From assembly GCA_024281095.1 (NCBI GenBank), contig JAMXLJ010000157.1:20183-84182 (forward strand): a stretch of 64,000 nucleotides of DNA. Direction: 5' to 3'. The notes beneath the pieces were generated by a model. It was not told where the DNA came from. It saw only the letters and a list, made by a program, of their open reading frames with translations, and did no database searches. Shown in pieces: positions 13,588 through 50,472 of the stretch; position 1 is the stretch's first letter, and each line of letters begins with the position of its first letter. The translations under genes were made by a program, and so were the position numbers. The stretch is from Acidimicrobiia bacterium. Lineage in GTDB: Bacteria > Actinomycetota > Acidimicrobiia > IMCC26256 > JAMXLJ01.

Positions 13588-13640
13588 GTGCGCTTCCTCC
13601 AGAGGGGCGGTGTCGAGCGGTCGCGTGCCGCGCCGACGGT

Positions 13641-14741
13641 TCAGGCGAAGGCCGGCAGGACGTGCCTTCCCAGAAGCTCGATGGATTGCATCACCTTCTC
13701 GTGCGGGATCTTGTACGGGTTCACGAGGCACAGCAGCAGGTCGCAACCCGCGGCCTCGTAACGCTTCGCCGTCTCGATGCACTCGTCGGGATCGCCCACC
13801 ACCGACGCACCCGATTCATGGATGTAGTCGAAGTTGAGATGCTCGAGCGCGCCGGCGCGATGGTGCTCGAGCGGCGCGGCTGCATAGCTGTACGTGCCGA
13901 GGTCGGTGCCCTCGAGCCACTCGGCCACGGACCCGATGAGCCACGAGCCGCGGCGCACGTACCAGACGAAGCTCTCGGCCGCGACTTCGTACGCCTCCTG
14001 CTTCGTGGGCGCGCAGTGCACCATCGTGAAGGTCGCGGCCTGGTCGTTCACGAACTTGCCGACGGGATCCGCGCACTCCGACAGGCCCTGGCGGTACAGC
14101 GCGATGCGCTCGGTGAGCTCCTCGGGCGGCACGCCGACCGTGAAGGAGCAGAGTCCGATGCCGTGCCGTCCGATCTCGCGGTGACCGTCGGGGCTGCTGG
14201 TCGCGCCCCAGATGGGCGGGTGCGGCTTCTGGAGCGGCTTCGGCTGCACTCGGCGCGGCCCGCCCATCCGCCAGTACTTGCCGTCGGCCTGGTACTCCTC
14301 CTCCGTCCACGCCGAGACGATGTGGCGCAATGCCTCGCTCCACATCGCGCGCGTCTCGTGCGGGCTCACGTCGAAGCCCTCGAGCTCGGCGCGCGTCGAC
14401 GAGCGCCCGGTGCCGAACTCGACGCGACCGTCGCTGACGAGGTCGAGCACCGCGACCGACTCGGCGGTGCGGATCGGATGGTTGTAGGGCTTCGGGAGGA
14501 GGCGGACGCCGTAGCCGAGGCGGATGTTCTTCGTCTGCGCGGCGATCGCGCCGTAGAGCACCTCGGGGTTCGAGCAGTGCGAGTACTCCTCGAGGAAGTG
14601 ATGCTCGACGGTCCAGAACGAGTGGAACCCCATCTTGTCGCCGAGGATCGCCTGCTCGATCGTGTTCTTGTACGCCCGGTGCTCGCTCTCCGCGTCCCAT
14701 GGGCGGGCCACGGGAATCTCGTAGAAGAGGGCGAACTTCAT
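13641..14741 (-). CDS. LLM-class flavin/F420-dependent oxidoreductase
   Basis: MKFALFYEIP...FHSFWTVEHHFLEEYSHCSNPEVL is a luciferase-like TIM barrel. The rest of ORF 13641..15302 is antisense to the SDR gene. Confidence 0.8.
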   Translation of the reverse strand: MKFALFYEIPVARPWDAESEHRAYKNTIEQAILGDKMGFHSFWTVEHHFLEEYSHCSNPEVLYGAIAAQTKNIRLGYGVRLLPKPYNHPIRTAESVAVLDLVSDGRVEFGTGRSSTRAELEGFDVSPHETRAMWSEALRHIVSAWTEEEYQADGKYWRMGGPRRVQPKPLQKPHPPIWGATSSPDGHREIGRHGIGLCSFTVGVPPEELTERIALYRQGLSECADPVGKFVNDQAATFTMVHCAPTKQEAYEVAAESFVWYVRRGSWLIGSVAEWLEGTDLGTYSYAAAPLEHHRAGALEHLNFDYIHESGASVVGDPDECIETAKRYEAAGCDLLLCLVNPYKIPHEKVMQSIELLGRHVLPAFA

Positions 14742-14767: not shown

Positions 14768-14781
14768 TAGAACGCGTTTCA
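14768..14781. promoter_or_regulatory. KstR-type operator candidate TAGAACGCGTTTCA
   Basis: Perfect fit to TnnAACnnGTTnnA, in the 85-nt divergent gap between the LLM-P450-cyclase operon (-) and the SDR gene (+). Confidence 0.6.
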
Positions 14782-14826: not shown

Positions 14827-15591
14827 ATGAGCAGGCTTGACGGGCGGGTTGCCCTGGTGACGGGGGCCGCGTCCGGGCTCGGCCTCGCCTGTGCGACCCG
14901 GTTCGCGGCCGAGGGGGCGCAGGTGTTCGGCGTCGACCTGCACCAGCCCGACGAATGGCCCGGCGCGCGGTTCCACGTCGTCGACGTCGCCGACGAGGAC
15001 GCGGTGGCGCGCACGATCTCCGACGTCGTGCAGGAGCACGGCCGCCTCGACGCGGTCTGCAACGCGGCCGGTGTCGCCGGCGGCGGGCCGGTGCACCTCG
15101 TGCCGCTCGCGGAATGGGAGCGCGTGCTGCGCGTCAACCTCACCGGCACGTTCCTCGTGTGCAAGCACGCAGTCGTCCCGATGATGGACCAGGGCTCGGG
15201 CAGCATCGTCAACTTCGCGAGCATCGAAGGGATCGAAGGCACCGAGGGCGGCAGCGCGTACAACGCGTCGAAGGGCGCGGTCGTGATCCTGACGAAGAAC
15301 ATGGCGATCGACTACGGCCGGCGCGGTGTCCGCGTGAACTGCATCTGCCCGGGGTTCATCGAGACGCCGATGTTCCGGTCGGTGATGGACAACGAGGGCA
15401 TGGCGAAGTATCGGGAGCGCTATCGCGACGAGCACAAGCTCGGCCGCTTCGGGCGCCCCGAGGAGATCGCCGGTGCGGCCCTCTTCCTCGTCTCCGACGA
15501 CGCCAGCTTCGTCACCGGCCACGCGCTCGTGGTCGACGGCGGCTTCACGGCGGGCATGCGGGCCGGGGTGCTGGAGGGCCTGGGCCTCTGA
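14827..15591 (+). CDS. SDR family oxidoreductase
   Basis: 254 aa with TGAASGLG and YNASK motifs. Confidence 0.85.
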   Translation: MSRLDGRVALVTGAASGLGLACATRFAAEGAQVFGVDLHQPDEWPGARFHVVDVADEDAVARTISDVVQEHGRLDAVCNAAGVAGGGPVHLVPLAEWERVLRVNLTGTFLVCKHAVVPMMDQGSGSIVNFASIEGIEGTEGGSAYNASKGAVVILTKNMAIDYGRRGVRVNCICPGFIETPMFRSVMDNEGMAKYRERYRDEHKLGRFGRPEEIAGAALFLVSDDASFVTGHALVVDGGFTAGMRAGVLEGLGL

Positions 15592-15603
15592 GCGCGACGC
15601 CCA

Positions 15604-15617
15604 TGTAACGTGTTTCA
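15604..15617. promoter_or_regulatory. KstR-type operator candidate TGTAACGTGTTTCA
   Basis: Perfect fit to TnnAACnnGTTnnA, ending 22 nt upstream of the ATG15640 of an ACAD pair. Confidence 0.6.
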
Positions 15618-15639
15618 GCCAGGTGCCGAGGAGGACCCG

Positions 15640-16815
15640 ATGCGGATCGGATACACCGACGAGCAGCAGGCGCTGCGAGACGAACTGCGCGCCTACTACG
15701 ACGGGCTGCTCACCCCGGAGGTGCGGGACAAGCTGTCGCACAGCGGCGGCATCGGGCCCGAGATGCGCAAGGTCGTCCGCCAAATGGGCGAAGACGGATG
15801 GCTCGGCGTGGGCTGGCCGAAGGAGTACGGCGGGCGCGGGTTCTCGGCGCTCGAGCAATTCGTGTTCTTCGACGAGTCCATGCGCGCGGGCGCTCCGGTG
15901 CCCATGCTGACGATCAACACCGTCGGGCCGACGATCATGCATTTCGGCACCGAGGAGCAGAAGAACTTCTTCCTGCCGAAGATCGTGAAGGGCGAGATCC
16001 ACTTCTGCATCGGCTACACGGAGCCGGGCGCGGGCACCGACCTCGCGGCCCTGAAGACGAAGGCCGTGCGCGACGGTGACGAGTACATCATCAACGGCCA
16101 GAAGATCTTCACGAGCCTGGCCGGCGACGCCGATTACGTGTGGCTCGCGGTACGCACGAACCCCGAGGTGAAGAAGCACAAGGGCATCTCGCTCTTCGTC
16201 GTACCGATGGACACTCCGGGCATCAAGGTCGTGCCCATGAAGCTCCTCGGCGAGCACGACATCAACCAGGTCTTCTACGAAGACGTGCGCGTACCGGCGA
16301 CCGCGCTCGTCGGAGGCGAGAACAACGGTTGGGGCCTCATCACGAGCCAGCTCAACCGCGAGCGGGTGACGCTGTGCTCGTCCGGCATCATCGAGCGCTC
16401 GCTCGCCGACGTGCGTGAGTGGGCGCAGCAGACGAAGCTCGCCGACGGGCGCCGCGTGATCGACCAGGAGTGGGTGCAGATGCATCTCGCGCGCGTGCAC
16501 GCGAAGCTCGAGTTCCTGCGCCTCGCCAACTGGCAGGTCGCGTGGCAGGCGACCAAGGGCACGCTCGACGTCGCCGCTGCCTCGACCATCAAGGTGTTCG
16601 GCACCGAGTTCTACCTCGAGGCGTTCCGGCTCCTGATGGAGGTCATCGGGCCCCGCTCGTATCTGCGGGAAGGCACGCCCGAATCGGTGCTCAAGAGCCG
16701 CCTCGAGTTGAACTACCGCAGCCTCATCATCCTGACGTTCGGCGGCGGTGTGAACGAGGTGCAGCGCGACCTCATTTCCGTGTTCGGCCTCGGCATGCCG
16801 ATGGCAGCCCGATAG
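15640..16815 (+). CDS. acyl-CoA dehydrogenase, alpha-subunit type
   Basis: ATG15640 is preceded by GAGGAG. Sequence MRIGYTDEQQALRDELRAYYDGLLTPEV...; paralog of 10276, 30153 and 53913. Confidence 0.85.
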   Translation: MRIGYTDEQQALRDELRAYYDGLLTPEVRDKLSHSGGIGPEMRKVVRQMGEDGWLGVGWPKEYGGRGFSALEQFVFFDESMRAGAPVPMLTINTVGPTIMHFGTEEQKNFFLPKIVKGEIHFCIGYTEPGAGTDLAALKTKAVRDGDEYIINGQKIFTSLAGDADYVWLAVRTNPEVKKHKGISLFVVPMDTPGIKVVPMKLLGEHDINQVFYEDVRVPATALVGGENNGWGLITSQLNRERVTLCSSGIIERSLADVREWAQQTKLADGRRVIDQEWVQMHLARVHAKLEFLRLANWQVAWQATKGTLDVAAASTIKVFGTEFYLEAFRLLMEVIGPRSYLREGTPESVLKSRLELNYRSLIILTFGGGVNEVQRDLISVFGLGMPMAAR

Positions 16816-16835
16816 ACGGGAGCGGAGCAAGAGAC

Positions 16836-17957
16836 ATGGATTTCTCCTTTTCCGAAGAGCAGGAAGCGGTTCGGGATCTCGCCAAGCAGATCCTCGAAGG
16901 GCAGGCGACGCACGAGCGGCTCAAGGAGCTCGAGGCGGGCGACGAGCGCTTCGACCGGAAGCTGTGGCAGGAGCTCGCCAACGCGGGTCTGATCGGGATC
17001 GCGTTGCCCGAGGCGGTTGGTGGCGCGGGCCAGAGCTTCCTGGCCGCGGCGCTGTTGCTCGAGCAGGTCGGCCGTACGGTGGCGATGGTCCCCGTGCTGC
17101 CGACGGTGGTGATGGGTGCGATGCCGATCGCGAAGTTCGGCACCGAGGAGCAGCAGCAGCGCTACCTGCCCGGCGTGGCGTCGGGCGACGTCGTGCTCAC
17201 CGCCGCACTCACCGAGTTCGGCACCGATCCGTTGCAGCCGACCACCACGGCCAAGCGGGCCGGCGACGGCTGGAGTCTGGACGGTGTGAAGGAAGAGGTG
17301 GCCGCGGGGCTCATCGCGGATGCCGTCCTCGTGCCCGCGTCCACCGACGACGGCGCCGTCGCCGTCTTCATCGTCGACCCGAAGGCCGGCGGCGTCACGA
17401 TCGAACGCCAGGACACGACGAGCGGCATACCCGAGGCTCGCATCACGCTGTCGGGTGTCACCGTCGGTGCCGGCGACGTGCTCGGCGACGTGACTGGCGG
17501 CGCGTCCGTTCTCGAATGGATCGTCGACCACACCACCGCTGCGTTGTGCGCGACGGCAGTGGGCGTCTGCGAAGAGGCGTTGCGCATGACCGCCGAGTAC
17601 ACGAAGACGCGCGAGCAGTTCGAGCGTCCCATTGCCACGTTCCAGGCGGTGGGTCAGCGCGCGGCCGACGCGTACATCGACACCGAGGCGGTGCGGCTGA
17701 CCGCGTGGCAGGCGGTGTGGCGCCTCGATGCCGGCTTGCCCGCGACGGCCGAGGTCGCGGTGGCGAAGTTCTGGGCGTCGGAAGGTGGCCAGCGCGTCGT
17801 GCACGCGGCGCAGCACCTGCACGGCGGCATGGGCGTCGATCGCGACTACCCATTGCACCGGTACTTCCTGTGGGCGAAGCAGATCGAGCTGACGCTCGGG
17901 AGCGAGACGCCGCAGTTGCGCAAGCTCGGAGCCATGCTCGCAGCCGAACCCGTGTAG
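16836..17957 (+). CDS. acyl-CoA dehydrogenase family protein, beta-subunit type
   Basis: ATG16836 gives 373 aa (MDFSFSEEQEAVRDLAKQILEG...). Near-identical N-terminal pattern to 32343. Confidence 0.8.
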   Translation: MDFSFSEEQEAVRDLAKQILEGQATHERLKELEAGDERFDRKLWQELANAGLIGIALPEAVGGAGQSFLAAALLLEQVGRTVAMVPVLPTVVMGAMPIAKFGTEEQQQRYLPGVASGDVVLTAALTEFGTDPLQPTTTAKRAGDGWSLDGVKEEVAAGLIADAVLVPASTDDGAVAVFIVDPKAGGVTIERQDTTSGIPEARITLSGVTVGAGDVLGDVTGGASVLEWIVDHTTAALCATAVGVCEEALRMTAEYTKTREQFERPIATFQAVGQRAADAYIDTEAVRLTAWQAVWRLDAGLPATAEVAVAKFWASEGGQRVVHAAQHLHGGMGVDRDYPLHRYFLWAKQIELTLGSETPQLRKLGAMLAAEPV

Positions 17958-17968
17958 TCGTACTCCGC

Positions 17969-18841
17969 TTGGATCGACAGCCCCAGCCCATCGTCGTCGA
18001 GCGCGACGGCCTCCACGTCGCCGCGCTCGACTGGGGCGGCGAGGGGCCCGCCCTCCTGTTCCTCCACCCGAACGGCTTTTGCGCGGGGCTGTTCCACCCG
18101 GTCGCGACGCGCGTGCGCGACCGGTTCCGGCCGATCGGCGTCGACCTGCGCGCGCACGGGGGCACCGACGAGCCGCCGACCATCGACGGCTATGCGTTCG
18201 CGCCCATGGCGGCCGATGTGCTCGCCGTGCTCGACGCGCTGGAGGTCGAGTCGGTCGTCGCACTGGGTGAGTCGCTCGGTGGCGGCGTCGCCGTCGTGAT
18301 GGACCGGCTCCGGCCGGGGTTCGTGCGCCGGCTGCTGCTGTGCGAGGCGATCGCGTTCGCACTCGACGAGGTCGCGCGGCCGGCCGGGGAGGGCCCGGGC
18401 GACGGCGGCAACTTCATGGCCGCGATCGCGCGCAAGCGGCGCGCGGTGTGGCCCGACCGCGACGTGATGATCCGGTCGTACGGCAGCCGGCCGCCGCTCG
18501 ACGAGCTCGCGCCGGAAGCCCTCGAGGCGTACGTGCGCTGGGGCACCGTCGAACGTCCCGACGGACAAGTGGAGCTCGCGTGCCGTCCCGAAGCGGAGGC
18601 GACGATCTTCGAGTCCACCGCGGGCCCAGGCGGCGCGCGGGACGCGTGGAACCATCTCGCGTCGCTGCACGCGGAGGCGACGGTTGTCGCGGGCACCCGT
18701 TCGAATCTCCCCCTCGAGTGGTTCGCGGCCCAGTCCGAGCGGGCCGGCTGCCCATTCGTCAAGATCGACGGCGGGCACTTCTTCGTGCAGGAAGACACCG
18801 ATCGCGCCGTCGACCTCGTCGACCGGCACCTCGCTCGTTGA
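17969..18841 (+). CDS. alpha/beta hydrolase
   Basis: LLFLHPNGFCAG and the nucleophile elbow GESLGG. The start is uncertain; TTG17969 is the first candidate after the upstream stop. Confidence 0.7.
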   Translation: MDRQPQPIVVERDGLHVAALDWGGEGPALLFLHPNGFCAGLFHPVATRVRDRFRPIGVDLRAHGGTDEPPTIDGYAFAPMAADVLAVLDALEVESVVALGESLGGGVAVVMDRLRPGFVRRLLLCEAIAFALDEVARPAGEGPGDGGNFMAAIARKRRAVWPDRDVMIRSYGSRPPLDELAPEALEAYVRWGTVERPDGQVELACRPEAEATIFESTAGPGGARDAWNHLASLHAEATVVAGTRSNLPLEWFAAQSERAGCPFVKIDGGHFFVQEDTDRAVDLVDRHLAR

Positions 18842-20157: not shown

Positions 20158-20757
20158 ATGTTCGCCCCAATACACTCCCGCGCCATCGCTGCCATCGAAC
20201 CCGTTGACGTTCTCGTGGTCTGCACCGGCAACATCTGCCGTTCACCCATGGGCGAGGCCCTGATGCGCCACCATCTCGCGGCGCGTGGTGTCGCGGCGCG
20301 GGTCCACTCGGCCGGAACGATGCGCTGGCGCGGCGTGGCCACGCCCGAGGCGGTGGAGGCCATGCGTGAGCGGGGCTTCGACGTGTCGTCCCACCAGAGC
20401 CGCAACCTCACGCCGGCGCTGATCGACGCGAGCGATCTCGTGCTGGGAATGACTCGCGCGCACGTCGACTTCGTCGGGAACCATTGTCCGGACGCCAGTG
20501 ACCGCACATTCATGGTTCGCGAGCTCGCGCGTCTCGGCGCGCGCGTCGGTCCGCGGGAACGACACGAGCCCGTGCGGCAGTGGCTGGGACGCGTGGCGGC
20601 GTTGCGCGAGCCGGGACGCCCCGTCGGCCACCCTCAGGACGAGATCGACGATCCCGTCGGCCAGCCGCTCGAGGTGTACCGCGCGACGGCGGCCCGGCTC
20701 GACGACGCGCTGGTGACGATCGCGGATCTTCTCGCCGGCCCGGCGGAGCAGAGCTGA
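20158..20757 (+). CDS. low-molecular-weight protein-tyrosine phosphatase
   Basis: P-loop VVCTGNICRSPMGE (CX5RS) and a DDP loop downstream. Confidence 0.8.
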   Translation: MFAPIHSRAIAAIEPVDVLVVCTGNICRSPMGEALMRHHLAARGVAARVHSAGTMRWRGVATPEAVEAMRERGFDVSSHQSRNLTPALIDASDLVLGMTRAHVDFVGNHCPDASDRTFMVRELARLGARVGPRERHEPVRQWLGRVAALREPGRPVGHPQDEIDDPVGQPLEVYRATAARLDDALVTIADLLAGPAEQS

Positions 20758-20758
20758 C

Positions 20759-22255
20759 ATGGCCCGGCCCCGCCGAGGCATGGCTGCGCCCGGGCTCGGT
20801 GCCGTCCGGGAGCACCTCCCCGGCGGCGCGCTGTGGGACCGCTTCGTGCGGCGGTACCTGATCGCGCTCGCACTGAGCTGCCTCGTGATCGTCGGCGGTC
20901 TCGTCGGCGTCAACATGAACGTCAACAGCAAGCTCGGGCGAATCCACAGCGTGAAGGGACTCAGCCTCGGAAAGGAGCCGAAGGCCCACTCGGGCAACTT
21001 CCTCGTGATCGGTTCCGACTCCCGCGGGTTCGTGCACAACTCGGCCCAAGCCCGAGCGTTCGGCAACGCGCAGCAACAAAGCGGGCAGCGAAGCGACACG
21101 ATCATGATCGCCCACGTCGACGCGTCGCAGAAGCACATCCTCGTCGTGTCGCTGCCGCGCGACACACAGGTCGACATCCCGGGCATGGGGCGCCAGAAGA
21201 TCAACGCCGCGTTCAATGCCGGTCCCCAGCGTCTCATCGACACGATCCAGGCCAACTTCCACGTCACGATCAACCACTACATCGAGGTCGGCTTCGATTC
21301 GTTCTCGGGCATCGTCGACGCGATCGGTCATGTGCCGATCTCGTTTCCTGCCCCGGCCTTCGACGTGTGCACCGGGCTCTACATCCCGTCGGCGGGCACG
21401 GCGCAGCTCGACGGCGTTGCCGCGCTGCAGTACGTGCGCTCCCGGCACCTGCAGTACTACCGGAACGGCGGGTGGCGCGACGCGAGCCCGCGCGCCGACC
21501 TCGACCGTGTCACGCGCCAGCAGGGCTTCATCCGCCAGCTCGCGACGCTCGCGTTCCAGAAGGCGGAGAAGGACATCTTCGCGGCCAACGACATCGCGAA
21601 CAGCGTCGTCGACAAGCTGGGCGTCGACGACTCGCTCGCGCAGAACCACGGCGACCTGCTCGCGTTCGTGCGCATCTTCCGCGACGTGAACCCGTCCGAC
21701 CCCACCGCGTTCGAGACCATCACGCTTCCGGTGCAGGGCGAAGGCACCACGACGCGGCCGTTGGTGCTCCAGCAGCCGCAGGCCGACGAGCTGTTCCAGC
21801 GATTGAAGAAATTCGGCGGGCCGCTGCCGATCTCGCACAACCTGCCGCCCCAGCAGATCCAGGTGCGGGTGCTCAACGGCACGGGCGTTCGGGGCCGGGC
21901 GAGCAGTGTGCAGCAGCAGATGTCCGCGCTCGGCTTCGTGGCCGCCGGGGTCGGCGACGCTCCGCACGCGACCGAGACCGAGGTGCACTACCGGCCCGAG
22001 GCCCTTGCGGGAGCACGGACGGTACAGGGATACCTCGGCGGGGTGGGGCAGCTCGTCGACGACCCGAACCTGCCGAGCGCGGCCGTCGTCGTCGTGCTCG
22101 GTGACGACTTCAAGCAGGTGATGACGCCGGAGCAGCTGCTGCTCAACACGGTCGCCCAGAACGCGACGAGCACCACGACCGGGCCACCCACCACGACCAC
22201 GACCGAGAAGGTCAAGAACCCGCCGCCGCCGAGGGAGTCCTGCCCGCAAACGTAA
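20759..22255 (+). CDS. LCP (LytR-CpsA-Psr) family cell-envelope glycopolymer transferase with LytR_C domain
   Basis: N-terminal TM segment, LVIGSDSR...RSDTIMIAHVD...SLPRD core, and C-terminal IQVRVLNGTGVRGRA. Confidence 0.85.
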   Translation: MARPRRGMAAPGLGAVREHLPGGALWDRFVRRYLIALALSCLVIVGGLVGVNMNVNSKLGRIHSVKGLSLGKEPKAHSGNFLVIGSDSRGFVHNSAQARAFGNAQQQSGQRSDTIMIAHVDASQKHILVVSLPRDTQVDIPGMGRQKINAAFNAGPQRLIDTIQANFHVTINHYIEVGFDSFSGIVDAIGHVPISFPAPAFDVCTGLYIPSAGTAQLDGVAALQYVRSRHLQYYRNGGWRDASPRADLDRVTRQQGFIRQLATLAFQKAEKDIFAANDIANSVVDKLGVDDSLAQNHGDLLAFVRIFRDVNPSDPTAFETITLPVQGEGTTTRPLVLQQPQADELFQRLKKFGGPLPISHNLPPQQIQVRVLNGTGVRGRASSVQQQMSALGFVAAGVGDAPHATETEVHYRPEALAGARTVQGYLGGVGQLVDDPNLPSAAVVVVLGDDFKQVMTPEQLLLNTVAQNATSTTTGPPTTTTTEKVKNPPPPRESCPQT

Positions 22256-22851
22256 TGTTGCGCCCCGTGGCCGTCGACGCGAACGGTGAGACCCTCACCC
22301 GGAACCAGGCCGTGCGGCGCGAGCGCGTCATCAAGGCCGTGATGGAGCTCGCCGCCGAAGGCGGATACGACGCGGTTCAGATGCGCGACGTCGCGGCTCG
22401 CGCGCACGTCGCCCTCGGCACGATCTACCGGTATTTCGCCTCGAAGGATCACCTGCTCGCAGCGACGCTGGTGGAGTTCTCCCATGACATCCAGGGGAGG
22501 CTCGTGCGCCAGCCGCCGCGTGGCGACACGTCCGCCGATCGCATGGTCGACGTCATCCGCCGGGCGATGAAGGCGATCGAGCGACAGCCTCGCCTCGGGA
22601 AGGCGATGGTCACCGCGATCGCGTCGCCCGATCCGGCTGTCGCCGGTTGTCAGGCCGAGATGAGCACGATCATGGTGCAGCTCCTGTCGGAGCCCATGGC
22701 CGACGTCGATCCTGACCGCCGGTTGCGGATCGTCACCGTGCTCTCGCACGTCTGGTTCTCGGCGTTGCTCGGCTGGGTCAACGAGTGGACGAACGTGGGC
22801 AGCGTCGGCGACGAGCTGGAGTCCGCGATTCGGCTGGTGCTTCCCGACTGA
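22255..22851 (+). CDS. kstR: TetR family repressor, KstR-like
   Basis: GGYDAVQMRDVAARAHVALGTIYRYFASKDHLL and C-terminal SHVWFSALLGWV...AIRLVL parallel my recollection of M. tuberculosis KstR (GGYEAVQMRAVADRADVAVGTLYRYFPSKVHLL ... SDVWLSNLLAWL...AVRLLI). Its ATG overlaps the LCP stop (TAATG). Confidence 0.75.
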   Translation: MLRPVAVDANGETLTRNQAVRRERVIKAVMELAAEGGYDAVQMRDVAARAHVALGTIYRYFASKDHLLAATLVEFSHDIQGRLVRQPPRGDTSADRMVDVIRRAMKAIERQPRLGKAMVTAIASPDPAVAGCQAEMSTIMVQLLSEPMADVDPDRRLRIVTVLSHVWFSALLGWVNEWTNVGSVGDELESAIRLVLPD

Positions 22852-22884
22852 CCGGCCCGTTTGCCTCCGGTTGCCGCTCAGAAA

Positions 22885-22898
22885 TGCAATGTGTTCTA
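22885..22898. promoter_or_regulatory. KstR-type operator candidate TGCAATGTGTTCTA (one core mismatch)
   Basis: Fits TnnAACnnGTTnnA except AAT for AAC. Lies between the kstR stop and the first DUF35 gene and overlaps the alternative ATG22884. Confidence 0.5.
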
Positions 22899-22907
22899 CT
22901 CGGGGCC

Positions 22908-23354
22908 GTGACGGAGCTACGCGCGACAACCCATACGATCGAGTTCCCGTACACGCGCACCTTGGGCCCTGTGATCGGGTCGTTCTTCACGGGGCTGCGC
23001 GACCGACGCATCCTCGGCATCAGGGCAGGCGACCGCGTGCTGGTGCCCCCGCTCGAATACGACCCCGAGACGGGCGACGCGCTGAAGCCCGACTTCGTCG
23101 AGGTCGGGCCGGCGGGCACCGTGACGTCGTGGTCGTGGGTCACGAAGCCGACGCGCAAGCACCCGCTCGACCGGCCGTTCGGCTTCGCCCTGATCCGCCT
23201 CGACGGCGCCGACACCGCGATGGTGCACGCGGTCGACGCCGGGTCCATCGACCGCATGCAGACCGGCATGCGCGTCACGCCGCGCTGGCGCGACGAGCGC
23301 AAGGGTCGCATCGACGACATCGAGTGCTTCGTGCCGGAAGGAGGTGCAGCGTGA
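22908..23354 (+). CDS. DUF35 OB-fold protein (N-terminal Zn-ribbon cysteines not evident)
   Basis: ...FPYTRTLGPVIGSFFTGLRDRRILGIRAGDRVLVPPLEYDPETG... The start is GTG22908 or ATG22884. Confidence 0.7.
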   Translation: MTELRATTHTIEFPYTRTLGPVIGSFFTGLRDRRILGIRAGDRVLVPPLEYDPETGDALKPDFVEVGPAGTVTSWSWVTKPTRKHPLDRPFGFALIRLDGADTAMVHAVDAGSIDRMQTGMRVTPRWRDERKGRIDDIECFVPEGGAA

Positions 23355-23920
23355 CCGACACGGCCGGCAACGCCACGACGACGTCCGGCGACGAGCCCGT
23401 GACGATGATGGAGTACTTCATGCAGCTCGAGTACTCCGACGTCGTGAGCGCGCCCGTGATGCGTTTCCGTGACGCGCTCATGGACGCGCGCCTCATCGCC
23501 CAGCAGTGTCCGAAGTGCAAGCTCGTGTACGTGCCACCCAAGGGCTACTGCCCGATCGACACCGTCGAGCTCGACGAGCGCAACGAGATCCAGCTCGCCG
23601 ACCGCGGCGTGGTGACGAACTACACGGTCGTCACGCCGGTGCAGTACTACGGCCAGAAGGAGACCGAGCCGTTCGTGCGGGCGTCGATCCTGCTCGACCC
23701 ACCCGGCGGCATGTTGATCCTGCAGGACGTCCTCGACATTCCGGTCGCCGAGGTCCGCGCCGGCATGCGGGTCGAGGCGGTGTGGGCGCCGAAGGGCGAA
23801 CGCGACGTCGACGAGATCGGCAACCGGTCGGGCAGTGCGCTCGAAGGGTCGTTGCGGGGCTTCCGCCCAACCGGCGAGCCCGACATGCCGGCAGAGGCAT
23901 TCAGCGACAAGGTGTGGTGA
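23351..23920 (+). CDS. Zn-ribbon/OB-fold DUF35 protein
   Basis: GTG23351 overlaps the upstream stop (GTGA). Has CPKC...YCP, a rubredoxin-like knuckle, followed by an OB fold. Confidence 0.7.
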   Translation: MTDTAGNATTTSGDEPVTMMEYFMQLEYSDVVSAPVMRFRDALMDARLIAQQCPKCKLVYVPPKGYCPIDTVELDERNEIQLADRGVVTNYTVVTPVQYYGQKETEPFVRASILLDPPGGMLILQDVLDIPVAEVRAGMRVEAVWAPKGERDVDEIGNRSGSALEGSLRGFRPTGEPDMPAEAFSDKVW

Positions 23921-24984
23921 TGGCTGCGCTCAAGGATGTTGCGATCATCGGCTACGCGCAGGCGCGCAACGAGCGCCAGGCGCAGGCGACCGAGGTACAG
24001 TTCCTGTTCCCGGTCATCAACGAGGCGTTGGAGATGTCGAAGATCCCGCGCCGCGAGATCGGCTTCACGTGCGCGGGCAGTTGTGACTACCTCTCCGGGC
24101 AGACGTTCGCGTTCGTGATGAACCTCGAGGCGGTGGGAGCGTGGCCCCCCATCAGCGAGAGCCACGTCGAGATGGACGGCGCGTGGGCGTTGTACGAAGC
24201 GTGGGTTCGCCTCCAGCACGAGGACATCGACACCGCGTTGGTGTTCGGCTCCGGCAAGTCGTCGCCCGGCAACCCGGCGGAGATCTATCCGCTCCAGATG
24301 GACCCGTACACCCTCACCCCGTTGGGTTTCGACCCGGTGTCGAGCGCGGCGATTCAAGCTCGGGCCCTGCTCGACGCGGGCAAGGTCACCGAGCGTCAGA
24401 TGGCGGAGATCGCGGCCCGGAGCCGGCGCGACGCGATGAAGAACCCCTACGCGCAGGTGACCGGCGAGTTCGACGTCGACGAACTGCTCGCGCAGCCGTA
24501 CGTCACCGCGCCGTTGCGCAAGCACGACCTGCCGCCGATCTCCGACGGCGCGTGCGCGGTCGTGCTCGCCACGGGTGACAAGGCTCGCGAGGTGTGCGAG
24601 CGGCCCGCGTGGATCCGCGGCATCGACCATCGCATCGAGGCGCACCAGCCGGGCATGCGCGATCTCACCACGTCGCGCTCGACGCGGCTCGCGGGCGAGG
24701 CTGCCGGCGTGGGCTCGGCGCCGATCGAGGTGGCCGAGCTGTCGGCGACGTTCACACACCAGGAACCGATCCTGCGCGAGGCGCTCGGGCTCGGCGACCA
24801 GGTCGCGATCAACCCGTCCGGCGGCGCGCTGAGCGCGAACCCGGTGATGGCGGTCGGCTTGGCTCGCATCGCCGAGGCCGCGAAACAGATCGTCGAAGGC
24901 GGCCGCCGCCGCACCCTCGGGCATGCGACCTCGGGGATGTGCCTGCAGCAGAACCTCGTCTGCGTCCTGGAAGGGGAGCAGTAG
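23920..24984 (+). CDS. thiolase-like lipid-transfer protein (Ltp3/Ltp4-like), probably non-thiolytic
   Basis: 354 aa SCP-x-type thiolase fold with C-terminal INPSGGALSANP. By eye there is no Cys at the nucleophile-aligned position (VEMDGAWAL). Confidence 0.75.
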   Translation: MAALKDVAIIGYAQARNERQAQATEVQFLFPVINEALEMSKIPRREIGFTCAGSCDYLSGQTFAFVMNLEAVGAWPPISESHVEMDGAWALYEAWVRLQHEDIDTALVFGSGKSSPGNPAEIYPLQMDPYTLTPLGFDPVSSAAIQARALLDAGKVTERQMAEIAARSRRDAMKNPYAQVTGEFDVDELLAQPYVTAPLRKHDLPPISDGACAVVLATGDKAREVCERPAWIRGIDHRIEAHQPGMRDLTTSRSTRLAGEAAGVGSAPIEVAELSATFTHQEPILREALGLGDQVAINPSGGALSANPVMAVGLARIAEAAKQIVEGGRRRTLGHATSGMCLQQNLVCVLEGEQ

Positions 24985-26150
24985 TGGCTACCGCTCATGA
25001 GCCGTGTGCCATCGTCGGCTTTGGCCAGACCAAGCACAAGAAGCGTCGTGACGATCTCTCGCTCCCGGGCCTCGTGCGCGAGGCGGCGGAGCGAGCGCTC
25101 GACGACGCCGGGATGACGTGGTCCGACATCGAGGCCGTCGTCATCGGCAAGGCGCCCGACCCGTTCGAGGGCGTGATGATGCCCGAGTTGTCGTTGGCCG
25201 ACGCGCTCGCCGCGGTCGGCAAGCCGATGATGCGCGTGCACACGGCCGGCAGCGTGGGCGGCTCGACCTCGATCGTCGCGTCGTCGTTGATCATGGGCCG
25301 CCGGCACCAGCGGGTCCTCACGGTCGCGTACGAGAAGCAGTCGGAGGGCAACGCCCAGTGGGGCCTCGCCGGCGGCCGCAGTGGCGGCATGGGAGCCGGC
25401 GGCATCTTCGCTCCGTGGATGCGGTCGTACATCCGCGGTTCGGGCGCGCCGGAGCACATCGGCTGGAAGGTCGCGGTGAAGGACCGGCTGAACGCGGTCA
25501 AGAACCCGTACGCGCATCTGCAGCTCCCCGACATCACGATCGAGAAGGTGAAGGAGTCGCCCATGTTGTGGGAGCCGATCCACTTCCTCGAGTCGTGCCC
25601 GAGCTCCGATGGTGCTGCCGCGATGGTGCTCACCGACGAGGAGGGTGGACGCGCCGCGTCGAAGCCGCCGGCGTGGGTGCTCGGCACCGCGATGCGAAGC
25701 GAGCTCGGTTCGTTTCCCGGGCGCGACACCGTGCGACCGCAAGCCGGCGTCGAGTGCGCGGAGATGTTGTACAAGGAAGTCGGCATCACCAACCCGCGCG
25801 AGCAGATCGACGTCGCGGAGCTCTACGTTCCGTTCTCGTGGTACGAGCCGATGTGGCTCGAGGGTCACGACATCGCCGGCCCGGGGGAGGGTTGGAAGAT
25901 GGTCGACTCGGGTGAGACCGAGATCACCGGCAGCTTCCCGGTGAACCCGTCCGGTGGTGTGCTGTCGTCGAATCCCATCGGGGCGTCGGGCATGCTGCGC
26001 TTCGGCGAGGCCGCGCAACAGGTCCGCGGTCAGGCGGGCGAGCATCAGGTTCCCGGCGCGAAGGTCGCGCTGGCCCAGGCCTACGGGGGCGCGGCGCAGT
26101 ACTTCGCAATGTGGGTGGTGTCGTCGGAGCTGCAACCCAGTCTCTCGTGA
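24984..26150 (+). CDS. thiolase-like lipid-transfer protein (Ltp3/Ltp4-like), probably non-thiolytic
   Basis: GTG24984 overlaps the upstream TAG. 388 aa with VHTAGSVGGSTS in place of the NNCATGST nucleophile motif, plus VNPSGGVLSSNP. Confidence 0.75.
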   Translation: MATAHEPCAIVGFGQTKHKKRRDDLSLPGLVREAAERALDDAGMTWSDIEAVVIGKAPDPFEGVMMPELSLADALAAVGKPMMRVHTAGSVGGSTSIVASSLIMGRRHQRVLTVAYEKQSEGNAQWGLAGGRSGGMGAGGIFAPWMRSYIRGSGAPEHIGWKVAVKDRLNAVKNPYAHLQLPDITIEKVKESPMLWEPIHFLESCPSSDGAAAMVLTDEEGGRAASKPPAWVLGTAMRSELGSFPGRDTVRPQAGVECAEMLYKEVGITNPREQIDVAELYVPFSWYEPMWLEGHDIAGPGEGWKMVDSGETEITGSFPVNPSGGVLSSNPIGASGMLRFGEAAQQVRGQAGEHQVPGAKVALAQAYGGAAQYFAMWVVSSELQPSLS

Positions 26151-26164
26151 GGTCGTGAGGAGCA

Positions 26165-27076
26165 ATGGCACAGAAGATCTGTGATGGTCGGGTCGTCGTC
26201 GTGACCGGTGCCGGGCGCGGTATCGGTCGTGAGCACGCGCTCGAGTTCGCCCGTCAGGGTGCGAAGGTCGTCGTCAACGATCTCGGCGCCGAGGTCGACG
26301 GCACCGGCGGGTCCACGGGCCCGGCCGGCGAGGTGGTCGAGACCATCCGGGGCATGGGCGGCGAGGCAGTCGCGAACGGCGACGACGTCGCCGACTGGAA
26401 CGGCGCCAAGGCACTGATCGACACGGCCGTCAACACGTTCGGCCGCCTCGACACGCTTGTCAACAACGCAGGCATCCTGCGTGACCGCATGCTCGTCAAC
26501 ATGACCGAAGACGACTGGGACGCGGTCATGCGTGTGCACCTGCGCGGGCACTTCTGCCCCACCCGTCACGCGGCGGCGTACTGGCGGGAGCAGGTGAAGG
26601 CGGGCGAGACCGTGGACGCGCGCATCGTCTGCACCAGCTCCGGCGCGGGCCTCTTCGGCAATATCGGTCAGGCGAACTACGCCGCCGCGAAGTCGGGCAT
26701 CGCGACGTTCGCACGGGTCGCCGCCGCCGAACTGGGCCGGTACGGCGTCACCGCGAACGCGATCGCTCCGATCGCCCGCACGCGGATGACGGAGAATCTG
26801 TTCGCGGGCAGCATGGCCCGGCCGGACGCGGGCGCCTTCGATGCGATGGATCCCGGGAACATCGCGCCGCTCGTCGTCTGGCTCGGGAGCAACGACTCCG
26901 CCGGTGTGTCGGGACACGTGTTCGAGGTGGCCGGCGGCAAGGTCAACATCGCCGACAACTGGCGCACGCTGCCCGGCGTCGACAAGGGCGAACGTTGGGA
27001 GCCGGCCGATCTCGGGCCTGTGGTGCGGGAGCTCGTCGCCAAGGTCGACCCGGTCAAGGTGATCGGCGCGCAGTGA
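26165..27076 (+). CDS. long SDR, Hsd4A / MFE-2 dehydrogenase-domain-like (3-hydroxyacyl-CoA dehydrogenase)
   Basis: 303 aa with VVVTGAGRGIGREHALEFARQGAKVVVNDLG...ANYAAAK. Confidence 0.8.
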   Translation: MAQKICDGRVVVVTGAGRGIGREHALEFARQGAKVVVNDLGAEVDGTGGSTGPAGEVVETIRGMGGEAVANGDDVADWNGAKALIDTAVNTFGRLDTLVNNAGILRDRMLVNMTEDDWDAVMRVHLRGHFCPTRHAAAYWREQVKAGETVDARIVCTSSGAGLFGNIGQANYAAAKSGIATFARVAAAELGRYGVTANAIAPIARTRMTENLFAGSMARPDAGAFDAMDPGNIAPLVVWLGSNDSAGVSGHVFEVAGGKVNIADNWRTLPGVDKGERWEPADLGPVVRELVAKVDPVKVIGAQ

Positions 27077-28362
27077 CGGCAACTGCGGATCGCGACGACC
27101 GCGACCGCGGGACCGCCTGGCCGCCACCGCCGCCGAGCGTCGAAGGCGACACCGAGGAGGACGCGGCATTCCGGGCCGAGGCGCGCGCGTGGCTCGAGGA
27201 GCACGCGAGCCCCCGTGCGGCCGAGAGCGTCTTCAATCGACGGTACGCGTCGGCCGACAACTCGCCCGAGGCCGACGAGGCCCACGTGCAGCGGTGCAAG
27301 GAGTGGCAGCGAACGCTGTTCGAAGGTGGATGGGCGGGCGTCAACGTTCCGCGCGAATACGGCGGACGGGACGGCACCGGGAAACAGGCCCGCATCTTCG
27401 CCCAGGAACAGGCCCGCTTCGACGTCGACACCGGTGTGTTCGCCGTCGGGCACGGCATGGTCATCCCGACGCTGCTCGTGCACGGCACCGACGAGCAGAA
27501 GCAGCGTTACATCCCGCCGCTCCTGCGCGGCGACGAAGTGTGGTGCCAGTTGTTCAGCGAGCCAAGCGCGGGATCGGATCTGGCCGGCCTGCGGACGCGT
27601 GCGGTCCGCGACGGCGACGAGTGGGTCGTGAACGGTCAGAAGGTGTGGAACTCCGGCGCGCACCACAGCGACATGGGGATCTTGCTGGCGCGCACCGACG
27701 TCGACGTGCCGAAGCACCGCGGAATCACGTACTTCCTCGTCGACATGCACACTCGGGGTATCGAGGTGCGGCCCCTCCGCCAGATCAACGGCGTGGCGCA
27801 CTTCAACGAAGTGTTCCTCACCGACGTGCACATCCCGGTTGCCAGCGTGCTCGGTGAGGTCAACGGCGGATGGGGTGTCGCGCAGACCACGCTCGCCAAC
27901 GAACGAACGCTCATCGGCGGCGGCACGGGCATCGGGTTCGGAGACTTCAAGCGCCTGGCCCGTGAATACGGCCGCACCGATGATCCGATCGTCCGTCAGC
28001 AACTGGCCGACGCGTTCATCCGCTTCGAGATCCTGAAGTATCTCGGCGCGCGCGCCCAGGCCGCGATCCGCGCCGGCAAGATGCCCGGACCGGAGAGCTC
28101 GGTCCTGAAGCTCGCGGTGTCCGAGCACGTCGCCCGCAACGGTGATCTCGGCCTCGCGCTCGAGGGTGCGGCGGGAATGCTGATCAACGAGGACACGACC
28201 CAGAACGGCCTCTGGCAGCAGCTGTTCCTCGGCCAGTGGGGCGTCAGGATCGGCGGCGGCACCGAGCAGGTGCAGCGCAACGTGCTCGGAGAGCGGGTGC
28301 TCGGGCTGCCCGGCGAGCCCCGACCCGACAAGGTCCTCCCGTTCCGAGAGCTCCCCGGTTGA
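27073..28362 (+). CDS. acyl-CoA dehydrogenase (WCQLFSEPSAGSDLA class)
   Basis: GTG27073 overlaps the upstream stop (GTGA). 429 aa, paralog of 2742 and 8001. Confidence 0.85.
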   Translation: MTATADRDDRDRGTAWPPPPPSVEGDTEEDAAFRAEARAWLEEHASPRAAESVFNRRYASADNSPEADEAHVQRCKEWQRTLFEGGWAGVNVPREYGGRDGTGKQARIFAQEQARFDVDTGVFAVGHGMVIPTLLVHGTDEQKQRYIPPLLRGDEVWCQLFSEPSAGSDLAGLRTRAVRDGDEWVVNGQKVWNSGAHHSDMGILLARTDVDVPKHRGITYFLVDMHTRGIEVRPLRQINGVAHFNEVFLTDVHIPVASVLGEVNGGWGVAQTTLANERTLIGGGTGIGFGDFKRLAREYGRTDDPIVRQQLADAFIRFEILKYLGARAQAAIRAGKMPGPESSVLKLAVSEHVARNGDLGLALEGAAGMLINEDTTQNGLWQQLFLGQWGVRIGGGTEQVQRNVLGERVLGLPGEPRPDKVLPFRELPG

Positions 28363-29842: not shown

Positions 29843-29854
29843 GCCGAATTCGGC
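29843..29854. repeat. 12-nt perfect palindrome GCCGAATTCGGC
   Basis: Read directly from the sequence. Shares the GCCGAAT half-site with 29880-29886 and 29928-29960. Confidence 0.7.
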
Positions 29855-29960: not shown

Positions 29961-30152
29961 GTGGCGCGCGAACAGGGGTTTCGCACGCCGGGATCCGACG
30001 TTTTTGGCGCGGGCGGCGGCGAGCGGTCCGTGGGCGGAAAGGTGCGGTCGAGCGCGGCGAGCGCGTAGTGGATGACCTCTTCGTACGGCATCGCCGCGGC
30101 GTATGCGGGCCTCTCTGACGTGCTGTTAGATTCGCTGCCCCCGGGAGGTGAC

Positions 30153-31337: not shown

Positions 31338-31350
31338 CGGGGGACGGGCC

Positions 31351-50458: not shown

Positions 50459-50472
50459 GAGAACGTATTCGA
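50459..50472. promoter_or_regulatory. weak KstR-box-like palindrome GAGAACGTATTCGA
   Basis: Two deviations from TnnAACnnGTTnnA. Lies in the divergent gap between two SDR genes, ending 28 nt upstream of ATG50501. Confidence 0.25.

What the first reader, a model, noticed from the sequence alone, without database searches (positions are those of the whole stretch)
22255..22898. KstR-like repressor with three near-consensus KstR operators in the island's promoter gaps
The TetR protein at 22255-22851 matches my recollection of M. tuberculosis KstR in both the HTH and the C-terminal helix. The loose KstR operator TnnAACnnGTTnnA is matched perfectly at 14768-14781 (TAGAACGCGTTTCA, divergent LLM-P450-cyclase / SDR promoter). 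It is matched perfectly again at 15604-15617 (TGTAACGTGTTTCA, upstream of an ACAD alpha/beta pair). A third site with one core mismatch lies at 22885-22898 (TGCAATGTGTTCTA, directly upstream of or overlapping the start of the DUF35-ltp operon). All three fall in the few short intergenic gaps of the island. A weaker palindrome lies at 50459-50472. Together this points to a KstR-type sterol regulon in an organism whose gene order differs from the mycobacterial cluster.
Basis: partly seen in the sequence, partly recalled or inferred. Interest (0 to 1): 0.6.

Follow-up and report, generated by a model that had tools for sequence, protein, structure and literature searches.

The report
KstR-type sterol repressor in Acidimicrobiia
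The window, from an uncultured Acidimicrobiia bacterium, encodes a repressor related to the mycobacterial cholesterol regulator KstR, and three DNA sites of the KstR type sit in front of cholesterol side-chain degradation genes, so a well-known regulatory circuit extends to a little-studied class of Actinobacteria.

Summary
The 198-aa TetR protein (22255-22851) has M. tuberculosis KstR as its closest solved relative by sequence (E = 3e-30). An AlphaFold model agrees: the 17 best PDB matches are all KstR. Identity is 38% overall and 73% in the helix-turn-helix. It scores below NCBI's KstR equivalog cut-off (152 vs 280 bits).

All three lie in promoter gaps. About 0.006 such sites are expected in the intergenic DNA; 3 are observed.

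The genes they face are orthologues of mycobacterial KstR targets: CYP125, ChsE4-ChsE5 (FadE26/27), and DUF35-Ltp4-Ltp3 (Rv3521-23).

In 80 Acidimicrobiia loci that carry homologues of this TetR, such sites are about 25-fold enriched. Of 112 sites, 92 are intergenic. They recur at orthologous positions, including the AAT variant of site 3.

The palindrome at 50459 is not significant. The repressor gene has no operator of its own and appears to be co-transcribed with a cell-wall gene. No ring-opening genes lie in the window.

Verdict: a real but ordinary new member of a known regulon type, in a new taxonomic class.

The parts
22255..22851 (+). KstR-like TetR-family repressor, 198 aa
   Evidence: Pfam TetR_N + TetR_C_20. 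Best PDB hit is Mtb KstR, E = 3e-30 over residues 5-198. NCBIfam KstR scores 152 bits against a cut-off of 280. AF2 model pLDDT 91.3, with the top 17 Foldseek hits all KstR. Its ATG overlaps the stop codon of the upstream LCP gene.
14768..14781 (.). Operator 1, TAGAACGCGTTTCA, in the divergent gap between LLM-CYP125-cyclase (-) and SDR-ChsE4-ChsE5 (+)
   Evidence: 22.2 bits, the best position in the window. The block TTGACG-N-site-ATCCAGCATA is conserved in the syntenic relative L003.
15604..15617 (.). Operator 2, TGTAACGTGTTTCA, 23 nt upstream of the ChsE4-like ACAD start
   Evidence: 20.6 bits. Six of the 7 relatives whose ChsE4-like upstream DNA is available have a >=13-bit site within 150 nt upstream. 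The nearest relative, L003, lacks it.
22885..22898 (.). Operator 3, TGCAATGTGTTCTA, 34 nt after the TetR stop and 10 nt before the GTG at 22908 of the DUF35-Ltp operon
   Evidence: 15.0 bits. The block is conserved in L003. A site in front of the DUF35-Ltp operon is found in at least 10 of the 18 relatives that carry the DUF35 orthologue. The AAT half-site variant recurs in 8 loci.
11459..14741 (-). Predicted target operon 1: luciferase-like monooxygenase (13641-14741), CYP125-family P450 (12370-13587), cyclase (11459-12373)
   Evidence: Pfam context. The P450's best PDB hits are CYP125 proteins; Mtb steroid C26-monooxygenase gives E = 8e-117.
14857..18841 (+). Predicted target operon 2: SDR (14857-15591), ChsE4-like ACAD (15640-16815), ChsE5-like ACAD (16836-17957), alpha/beta hydrolase (17969-18841)
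   Evidence: Best PDB hits are 4x28_A at E = 1.6e-141, then 6wy8_A and 4x28_D. Gene calls.
22908..28362 (+). Predicted target operon 3: DUF35 (22908 or 22884 to 23354), DUF35 (23351-23920), Ltp4-type (23920-24984), Ltp3-type (24984-26150), SDR (26165-27076), ACAD (27073-28362)
   Evidence: Pfam OB_ChsH2_C twice. NCBIfam PRK07937 scores 514 bits (cut-off 419) and PRK08313 scores 599 bits (cut-off 514). PRK07791 SDR scores 462 bits (cut-off 373).
20158..22255 (+). LMW phosphatase (20158-20757) and LytR-CpsA-Psr (20759-22255) genes, apparently co-transcribed with the repressor
   Evidence: Pfam. Stop and start codons abut or overlap. No KstR-type site upstream; the best score is -13.6 bits.
30072..35051 (+). 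Further side-chain genes of the island with no recognisable operator: ACAD, ChsH2-like hydratase (31351-32346), ACAD, Ltp2-type thiolase (33768-35051)
   Evidence: ChsH2: 6ok1_B at 1.3e-51 and 4wnb_A at 5e-34. PRK07855 lipid-transfer protein scores 688 bits (cut-off 469). The best site scores in their gaps are -2.7 and -1.0 bits.
50459..50472 (.). Weak palindrome GAGAACGTATTCGA, not part of the system on present evidence
   Evidence: 6.5 bits. Nine positions in the window score at least this much, eight of them inside genes.

Best explanation
The gene at 22255-22851 encodes a KstR-type TetR repressor of an uncultured Acidimicrobiia bacterium. As a dimer it most likely binds the 14-bp palindromes at 14768, 15604 and 22885. 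These lie over or next to the core promoters of three transcription units that encode sterol side-chain catabolism. The units are LLM-CYP125-cyclase and, divergently, SDR-ChsE4-ChsE5-hydrolase; the ChsE4-ChsE5 pair again, from an internal site; and DUF35-DUF35-Ltp4-Ltp3-SDR-ACAD. Binding blocks transcription. By analogy with M. tuberculosis KstR, a CoA thioester of an early side-chain intermediate would release the repressor. Shown here: the homology and fold of the protein, the statistical reality of the sites and their promoter location, their conservation at orthologous positions in other Acidimicrobiia, and the orthology of the flanking genes to mycobacterial KstR targets. Inferred: actual binding, repression, the identity of the inducer, and that the natural substrate is a sterol.
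For: Protein. The best solved relative is Mtb KstR, E = 3e-30, full length. The best NCBIfam family is KstR. The AF2 model has pLDDT 91.3, and the 17 best PDB matches are all KstR chains, with query-normalised TM-scores of 0.77-0.84. Identity to KstR is 59% in the DNA-binding domain and 73% in the helix-turn-helix. Of the 51 residues invariant in the Acidimicrobiia family, 37 are identical in KstR.

Sites in the window. They are the top three weight-matrix scores in 64 kb. Expected in the gaps: 0.006. Observed: 3.

Comparative evidence. In 80 Acidimicrobiia loci with TetR homologues there are 112 sites of >=13 bits in 1.26 Mb, against 2-6 in shuffles. Of these, 92 are intergenic, at a median of 13.5 nt from the start codon they face, and 44 lie in divergent gaps. 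Forty-four of the 80 loci have a site within 1.5 kb of the TetR gene. Sites 1 and 3 are conserved as blocks in the fully syntenic relative L003. Operators precede the ChsE4-like and DUF35-Ltp orthologues in many relatives.

Targets. CYP125, ChsE4 and ChsE5, and Ltp4/Ltp3-type proteins above NCBIfam cut-offs. In M. tuberculosis the intergenic regions Rv3545c/Rv3546, Rv3503c/Rv3504 and Rv3520c/Rv3521 each carry a KstR site (Table 3 of PMC1995591). That these flank cyp125, fadE26 and Rv3521-ltp4-ltp3 is my own knowledge of the gene numbering.

Further sites. A fourth strong site lies on the same contig just outside the window. A KshA-like Rieske gene sits behind such a site in relatives L020 and L058.
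Against: The protein scores 152 bits against NCBI's KstR equivalog cut-off of 280. The ligand-binding domain is only 28% identical to KstR, so the inducer may differ. There is no operator in front of the repressor's own apparent operon, LMWPc-LCP-TetR, whereas mycobacterial kstR is autoregulated. Site 2 is absent in the closest relative. Site 3 has a core mismatch, and its 15.0 bits alone lie within the range of whole-window shuffles, whose 95th percentile is 16.1. No KshA, KstD or Hsa ring-degradation genes are in the window. A subclade of homologues at about 52% identity has no such sites nearby. The consensus promoter scan found no sigma-70-like promoter at the sites. The genome is a metagenome-assembled one, and nothing here is experimental.
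Confidence: 0.8

Rival explanations
1. The repressor is a KstR-like paralogue that kept the KstR operator but senses a different acyl-CoA. On this reading the island degrades a non-steroid branched or alicyclic lipid (for example isoprenoid or hopanoid-type side chains), not sterols.
For: The ligand domain is only 28% identical to KstR, and the protein is below the KstR equivalog cut-off. No ring-opening genes are in the window. The island also carries enzymes not typical of the mycobacterial cluster: a luciferase-like monooxygenase, cyclases, SnoaL-like proteins and an epoxide hydrolase. CYP124/125-type P450s also oxidise methyl-branched lipids; CYP124 is the next-best family, at E = 5e-108.
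Against: ChsE4 matches at 475 bits, and ChsE5, ChsH2 with its DUF35 domain, CYP125, and Ltp2/3/4-type proteins above curated cut-offs are all steroid side-chain specialists. The acyl-CoA synthetase's best family is steroid-22-oyl-CoA synthetase. Thirteen of the 20 family-invariant ligand-domain residues are shared with KstR. A KshA-like gene is under the same motif in relatives.
Confidence: 0.14
2. The palindromes are operators of a different regulator encoded elsewhere in the genome, and their adjacency to this TetR is coincidental.
For: Only 64 kb of the genome (87 kb of contig) can be seen. The repressor gene has no operator of its own. One MAG carries two paralogues, L043 and L071.
Against: The helix-turn-helix is 73% identical to that of KstR, which binds exactly this motif. 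Forty-four of 80 loci chosen only for carrying the TetR homologue have a strong site within 1.5 kb of it, several directly upstream (-10 to -115) or directly downstream (+23 to +108).
Confidence: 0.04
3. The three matches are chance occurrences of a loose 8-of-14 pattern in AT-richer intergenic DNA.
For: Site 3 alone (15.0 bits) is within the upper tail of whole-window shuffles. One-mismatch matches also occur inside genes.
Against: Expected 0.07 perfect matches against 2 observed. Expected 0.006 sites of >=15 bits in the gaps against 3 observed; none of 2000 shuffles gave three. The sites are conserved at orthologous positions in other genomes.
Confidence: 0.02

Closest known systems
KstR (Rv3574 / MSMEG_6042), the TetR-family repressor of the cholesterol-catabolism regulon in Mycobacterium, Rhodococcus and Nocardia
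   Same: Same fold and the same closest family. The operator consensus is the same: the Acidimicrobiia sites symmetrise to T-A/G-G-A-A-C-N-N-G-T-T-C-T/C-A, against TnnAACnnGTTnnA with core TAGAAC(N2)GTTCTA in mycobacteria. The same classes of target gene are involved (cyp125, fadE26/27, DUF35-ltp4-ltp3), with operators in short or divergent promoter gaps.
   Different: Only 38% identical overall and 28% in the ligand domain, and below the NCBIfam equivalog cut-off. It is not divergent from a fadE34-like gene and has no operator of its own here. Instead it follows an LMW phosphatase and an LCP gene with overlapping stop and start codons. The host is a different class, Acidimicrobiia. The gene order of the island differs, and ring-degradation genes are not adjacent.
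KstR2 (Rv3557c), the TetR repressor of the steroid C/D-ring (HIP) regulon
   Same: A TetR-family repressor of steroid catabolism that responds to a CoA thioester.
   Different: No chain named KstR2 is among the 60 best of the 83 solved-structure hits for this protein. As I recall it, the KstR2 operator (AnCAAGnnCTTGnT) is a different palindrome; it was not searched for here.
RHA1 TetR regulator 3BJB and the acyl-CoA-responsive TetR FadR proteins (Thermus thermophilus 3ANG, Bacillus subtilis 3WHB)
   Same: These are the next-best sequence and structure matches (E = 7.5e-20 and 2.3e-08; TM-scores 0.67-0.80). They are fatty-acyl-CoA-sensing repressors of beta-oxidation genes.
   Different: Much weaker similarity than to KstR. 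Their operators and regulons are not those seen here.

Membership tests
KstR (NCBIfam NF033703 equivalog) | Whole-protein score at or above the curated cut-off of 280 bits | tested here: not met
   152.3 bits, E = 1.1e-44, covering model positions 4-184 of 185. It is still by far the best family; the next is BetI at 48 bits.
KstR | KstR is the closest characterised relative by sequence and by fold | tested here: met
   PDB phmmer gives KstR chains E = 3e-30 and the next protein 7.5e-20. The 17 best Foldseek hits for the AF2 model (pLDDT 91.3) are all Mtb KstR.
KstR | 14-bp palindromic operator TnnAACnnGTTnnA in promoter regions of the regulon | tested here: met
   Three sites of 15-22 bits in the gaps of the window, against 0.006 expected. 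About 25-fold enrichment around homologues in 80 loci, 92 of 112 sites intergenic.
KstR | Operators precede cholesterol-catabolic genes orthologous to known regulon members | tested here: met
   CYP125, ChsE4/ChsE5 and DUF35-Ltp4-Ltp3 types lie behind sites 1-3. The corresponding Mtb intergenic regions carry KstR sites.
KstR | Autoregulation: an operator in its own promoter, with the gene divergent from a fadE34-type ACAD | tested here: not met
   No site upstream of LMWPc-LCP-TetR in the window or in L003 (best scores -13.6 and -7.6 bits). More distant relatives do have a site-ACAD-TetR operon, or a site 10-115 nt upstream of the TetR gene.
KstR | DNA binding relieved by 3-oxocholest-4-en-26-oyl-CoA or related CoA thioesters | not testable with these tools
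   The ligand domain is 28% identical. Thirteen of the 20 family-invariant ligand-domain residues are shared with KstR. The paper listing the contact residues could not be read.
KstR | Physical binding of the protein to the predicted operators | not testable with these tools
   Only indirect support: the helix-turn-helix is 73% identical, and gene and sites co-occur.
TetR family (Pfam) | N-terminal TetR_N helix-turn-helix plus an all-helical C-terminal domain | tested here: met
   PF00440 scores 58.8 bits and PF17925 (TetR_C_20) 62.0 bits, both above their gathering scores. The AF2 model has nine helices.
Aerobic 9,10-seco steroid catabolic pathway (complete) | Ring-opening genes KshA, KstD and HsaABCD in the same genome | tested here: inconclusive
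   None in the 64 kb window, nor in the extra 5.9 kb of the contig that was read. A KshA-like gene (Rieske + KshA_C) lies behind a site in relative L020. The rest of this genome was not available.

The most novel reading that the evidence does not exclude
The KstR repressor, its operator sequence and its link to cyp125, chsE4-chsE5 and DUF35-ltp4-ltp3 may be conserved between Actinomycetes and the deep-branching class Acidimicrobiia. If so, the circuit is either ancestral to Actinomycetota or was transferred as a whole. Acidimicrobiia, which are abundant in soil, water and sludge, would then be a large unrecognised guild of sterol degraders. In this lineage the repressor would have lost autoregulation and become part of a cell-envelope operon (LMW phosphatase-LCP-kstR).
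Probability: 0.45. Interest if true: 0.5.

Novelty: new member of a known kind. Interest (0 to 1): 0.36.

Why it matters
KstR regulons have been described in Mycobacteriales and a few other Actinomycetes. The two broad surveys of steroid degraders that I could read (PMC4810484 and PMC5790920) do not mention Acidimicrobiia at all, and literature searches found nothing on KstR in this class. If the prediction holds, an unchanged operator gives a cheap way to map sterol-catabolic regulons in hundreds of uncultured Acidimicrobiia genomes. It would also point to these common environmental bacteria as sterol consumers. Mechanistically it adds nothing new: it is the known circuit in a new host, with a different arrangement of the repressor gene.

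Tried and rejected
- Three exact-protein look-ups for flanking context failed, probably because of the start codons I chose.
- The one-mismatch match at 20195-20208 looked like an autoregulatory site in the CoA-transferase/LMWPc gap. It lies inside the LMWPc coding sequence once the start is corrected to 20158, because the CX5R P-loop is encoded from 20209. It scores -1.5 bits. Rejected.
- The palindrome at 50459 (6.5 bits) and the match at 61424 (-4.6 bits) were rejected as not significant.
- The consensus sigma-70 and terminator scans found nothing at sites 1-3. My statement that the operators overlap promoter elements therefore rests only on blocks conserved with L003, on TAnnnT-like hexamers in relatives, and on the short distance to start codons.
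- The structural paper listing KstR's DNA and ligand contacts (Ho et al. 2016) is not held, so residue-level tests of the ligand pocket were not possible.
- Two long metagenome contigs, L083 and L084, were too fragmented by frameshifts to help.
- Rfam and tRNA scans of the window found nothing.
Full report
**Source and gene map**

The window is the reverse of part of contig JBEDUP010000091.1 (87 kb) of assembly GCA_040414785.1. It is 69% G+C. Homologues of the TetR protein come almost entirely from Acidimicrobiia metagenome-assembled genomes, so the host is an uncultured member of that class of Actinomycetota.

The gene map comes from the database calls with Pfam and from my own Pfam scans. 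It shows an island dense in acyl-CoA dehydrogenases, SCP2-type thiolases, short-chain dehydrogenases, CoA ligases and transferases, and two P450s. Around the finding the order is:
- cyclase (11459-12373, -), P450 (12370-13587, -), luciferase-like monooxygenase (13641-14741, -);
- SDR (14857-15591, +), ACAD (15640-16815), ACAD (16836-17957), alpha/beta hydrolase (17969-18841);
- CoA-transferase (18854-20050, -);
- LMW phosphatase (20158-20757), LytR-CpsA-Psr (20759-22255), TetR (22255-22851);
- DUF35 (to 23354), DUF35 (23351-23920), two thiolase-like Ltp genes (23920-26150), SDR, ACAD.

**The protein**

The 198-aa product has Pfam TetR_N and TetR_C_20 domains.
- Among all PDB sequences the best matches are the M. 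tuberculosis KstR entries, at E = 3e-30 over residues 5-198. The next protein, a Rhodococcus RHA1 TetR, is ten orders of magnitude weaker.
- Among NCBIfam models KstR (NF033703) is the best by 100 bits. However, the score of 152 bits is below the equivalog cut-off of 280.
- An AlphaFold2 model built on 28 family members has mean pLDDT 91.3. Its 17 best Foldseek matches in the PDB are all KstR chains, with TM-scores of 0.77-0.84 normalised to the query.
- Identity to KstR is 38% overall, 59% in the DNA-binding domain, 73% across helices 2-3, and 28% in the ligand domain.
- Of the 51 residues invariant in the Acidimicrobiia family, 37 are identical in KstR: 24 of 31 in the DNA-binding domain and 13 of 20 in the ligand domain.

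**The sites in the window**

The strict published core TnnAACnnGTTnnA (Kendall et al. 2007, PMC1995591) occurs exactly twice in 64 kb, at the stated positions, against 0.07 expected.

I built a symmetrised weight matrix from the 47 sites in Table 3 of that paper.

| Position | Sequence | Score (bits) |
|---|---|---|
| 14768 | TAGAACGCGTTTCA | 22.2 |
| 15604 | TGTAACGTGTTTCA | 20.6 |
| 22885 | TGCAATGTGTTCTA | 15.0 |

The training sites score 12.8-26.6 bits. The fourth-best position scores 10.6 bits and lies inside a gene.

Whole-window shuffles give a mean maximum of 10.1 bits and never exceed 18.4 bits. Shuffles of the 3.8 kb of intergenic DNA, using its own composition, give 0.006 sites of >=15 bits against 3 observed, and none of 2000 shuffles gave three. 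Every other gap of the window scores 6.5 bits or less.

The 'weaker palindrome' at 50459 is that 6.5-bit position and is not significant. A one-mismatch match at 20195 lies inside the LMW phosphatase gene once its start is corrected, and it is noise.

**Conservation in other genomes**

One scan of species-representative genomes with the family alignment returned 80 loci, nearly all labelled as Acidimicrobiia or unclassified Actinomycetota MAGs. Their TetR homologues are 50-82% identical to the window protein.
- In these 1.26 Mb the mycobacterial matrix finds 112 sites of >=13 bits, against 2-6 in shuffles. Many are the perfect palindrome TAGAACGTGTTCTA.
- By a GC3-based gene call, 92 of the 112 sites are intergenic although 84% of the DNA is coding. 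Several of the other 20 are evident gene-calling errors.
- The median distance to the start codon a site faces is 13.5 nt, and 44 sites lie in divergent gaps.
- Forty-four of the 80 loci have a site within 1.5 kb of the TetR gene. Recurrent positions are directly downstream of it (+23 to +108), directly upstream (-10 to -115), and about 1.25 kb upstream. The last marks the start of an ACAD-TetR operon.

The closest relative, L003 (82% identical TetR), is fully syntenic with window 13.6-29.7 kb.
- Site 1 and its flanks are conserved there (TTGACG-N-TAGAAC..GTTTCAATCCAGCATA).
- Site 3 and its flanks are also conserved (GGTTGCCGCTCAGAAATG[C/G]AATGTGTTCTACTCGGGG).
- Site 2 is missing in L003. Even so, six of the seven relatives whose ChsE4-like ACAD has upstream DNA available carry a strong site within 150 nt of it.
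- At least ten of the 18 relatives with the DUF35 orthologue have a site in front of the DUF35-Ltp operon.
- The AAT half-site that makes site 3 imperfect recurs in eight loci, so it is a tolerated variant rather than decay.
- The 3' flank of site 3 (GTTCTACTCG) is identical to that of the published Rv3520c/Rv3521 and MSMEG_5920/5921 sites.

**What the operators control**

- The P450 behind site 1 is a CYP125. The Mtb steroid C26-monooxygenase gives E = 8e-117, and a reconstructed CYP125 ancestor gives 1.6e-170.
- The ACAD pair behind sites 1 and 2 matches 4X28 chains A and D (E = 1.6e-141 and 3.6e-80) and the Thermomonospora curvata Tcur3483/Tcur3481 pair. As I recall it, 4X28 is the ChsE4-ChsE5 (FadE26-FadE27) complex.
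- Behind site 3 lie two DUF35 proteins. After them come two lipid-transfer-type thiolases that pass NCBIfam cut-offs: PRK07937 at 514 bits (cut-off 419) and PRK08313 at 599 bits (cut-off 514). This arrangement matches Rv3521-ltp4-ltp3.
- Further along the island are a ChsH2 orthologue with its DUF35 tail, a PRK07855 Ltp2-type thiolase (688 bits, cut-off 469), and a CoA ligase whose best family is steroid-22-oyl-CoA synthetase. None of these has a recognisable operator.

In M. tuberculosis the intergenic regions Rv3545c/46, Rv3503c/04 and Rv3520c/21 each carry a KstR site. These are the regions in front of cyp125, fadE26 and Rv3521; the gene numbering is my own knowledge. The regulator-operator-target relationships are therefore conserved unit by unit.

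A fourth strong site (TGTAACGCGTTCCA, 20.8 bits) lies on the same contig about 4.3 kb beyond the window's left end, in front of an aldehyde dehydrogenase operon.

**Mechanism**

The sites lie 10-27 nt from the nearest start codon they face. Site 1 is 27 nt from the LLM start and 76 nt from the SDR start. Site 2 is 23 nt from the ACAD ATG, which has a GAGGAGG ribosome-binding sequence. Site 3 is 10 nt from the GTG at 22908.

In relatives the last TA of the operator often begins a TAnnnT hexamer, for example TATTGT or TAGTAT. In mycobacteria the operator likewise overlaps the -10 element.

I therefore infer that the bound dimer occludes the -10 region and transcription start of short-leader or leaderless transcripts. 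The generic sigma-70 scan found no promoter here, so this step remains an inference. No terminator separates the TetR gene from the DUF35 gene. Site 3 could therefore also act as a roadblock to read-through.

**Differences from canonical KstR**

- The repressor gene's ATG overlaps the stop codon of an LCP gene, which itself abuts an LMW phosphatase gene. No KstR-type site precedes that unit in the window or in L003, so autoregulation is not evident.
- Linkage to the LMW phosphatase recurs in L005-7, L035, L037 and L084.
- No KshA, KstD or Hsa genes are in the window. A KshA-like Rieske gene lies behind a site in L020, and the same arrangement appears in L058.
- A subclade of Acidimicrobiaceae homologues at about 52% identity has no such sites within 10 kb. 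The family is therefore not uniform.

**Known or new**

The mechanism and the motif are textbook KstR. The two broad surveys of steroid degraders that I could read do not mention Acidimicrobiia. My literature searches found no paper in the held library on KstR or sterol catabolism in this class.

I rate this a new member of a known kind. The finding is real, well supported computationally and modestly interesting for environmental sterol turnover. It is not mechanistically surprising.

Noticed in passing
window 20158-20757: The database gene call for the LMW phosphatase starts at 20263. The catalytic CX5R P-loop (VLVVCTGNICRS) is encoded from 20209, in frame with the ATG at 20158, so the annotated start is too far downstream.
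   Followed up: partly
window 20158-22851; also L003, L005-L007, L035, L037, L084: The KstR-like gene is repeatedly linked to an LMW phosphatase gene. In this window and in L003 an LCP cell-wall ligase gene lies between them. Here the TetR ATG overlaps the LCP stop codon (TAATG), and no operator precedes the unit. One database protein (P0092, 317 aa) is recorded as a TetR-LMWPc fusion.
   Followed up: partly
L085:19617-19630 (same contig, about 4.3 kb left of window position 1): A fourth strong KstR-type site, TGTAACGCGTTCCA (20.8 bits). It lies in the 94-nt gap upstream of an aldehyde dehydrogenase, Zn-ADH, cyclase and SDR gene run and downstream of an acyl-CoA ligase gene.
   Followed up: partly
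L044, L052-L057, L060-L082 (mostly uncultured Acidimicrobiaceae): A subclade of TetR homologues, about 52% identical to the window protein and about 38% to Mtb KstR, has no KstR-type site of >=13 bits within 10 kb. It may use a different operator or regulate distant genes.
   Followed up: partly
L020:18209-19285 (-) and L058:16342-17403 (-): In L020 a KshA-like oxygenase (Rieske + KshA_C domains) in an amidohydrolase-KshA pair lies directly behind a KstR-type site. This hints that steroid ring opening is in the regulon in some Acidimicrobiia. L058 has the same gene arrangement behind a site, but its genes were not scanned against Pfam.
   Followed up: partly
L043 and L071: Two homologues of the TetR (54% and 52% identical to the window protein) come from one MAG (JAYRFK01), so some genomes carry two paralogues.
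   Followed up: no
L018, L020, L058 and about 20 other loci, about 1.25 kb upstream of the TetR gene: In more distant relatives a near-perfect operator precedes an ACAD-TetR two-gene operon. This recalls the fadE34-kstR neighbourhood of mycobacteria, but the genes are co-oriented rather than divergent.
   Followed up: partly
window 47603-48241, 29678-30071, 33456-33767, 61285-61607: Unusually long gaps without a called gene (639, 394, 312 and 323 nt) in an otherwise tightly packed window. They contain no Rfam family, tRNA or KstR-type site.
   Followed up: no
window 44665-46432 and 50522-59024: A second set of oxidative genes has no KstR-type sites: a luciferase-like monooxygenase, several SnoaL-like proteins, an epoxide hydrolase, a second P450 (55159-56406), an ABM monooxygenase and a glyoxalase-fold protein. 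It may belong to another regulon or act on modified substrates.
   Followed up: no
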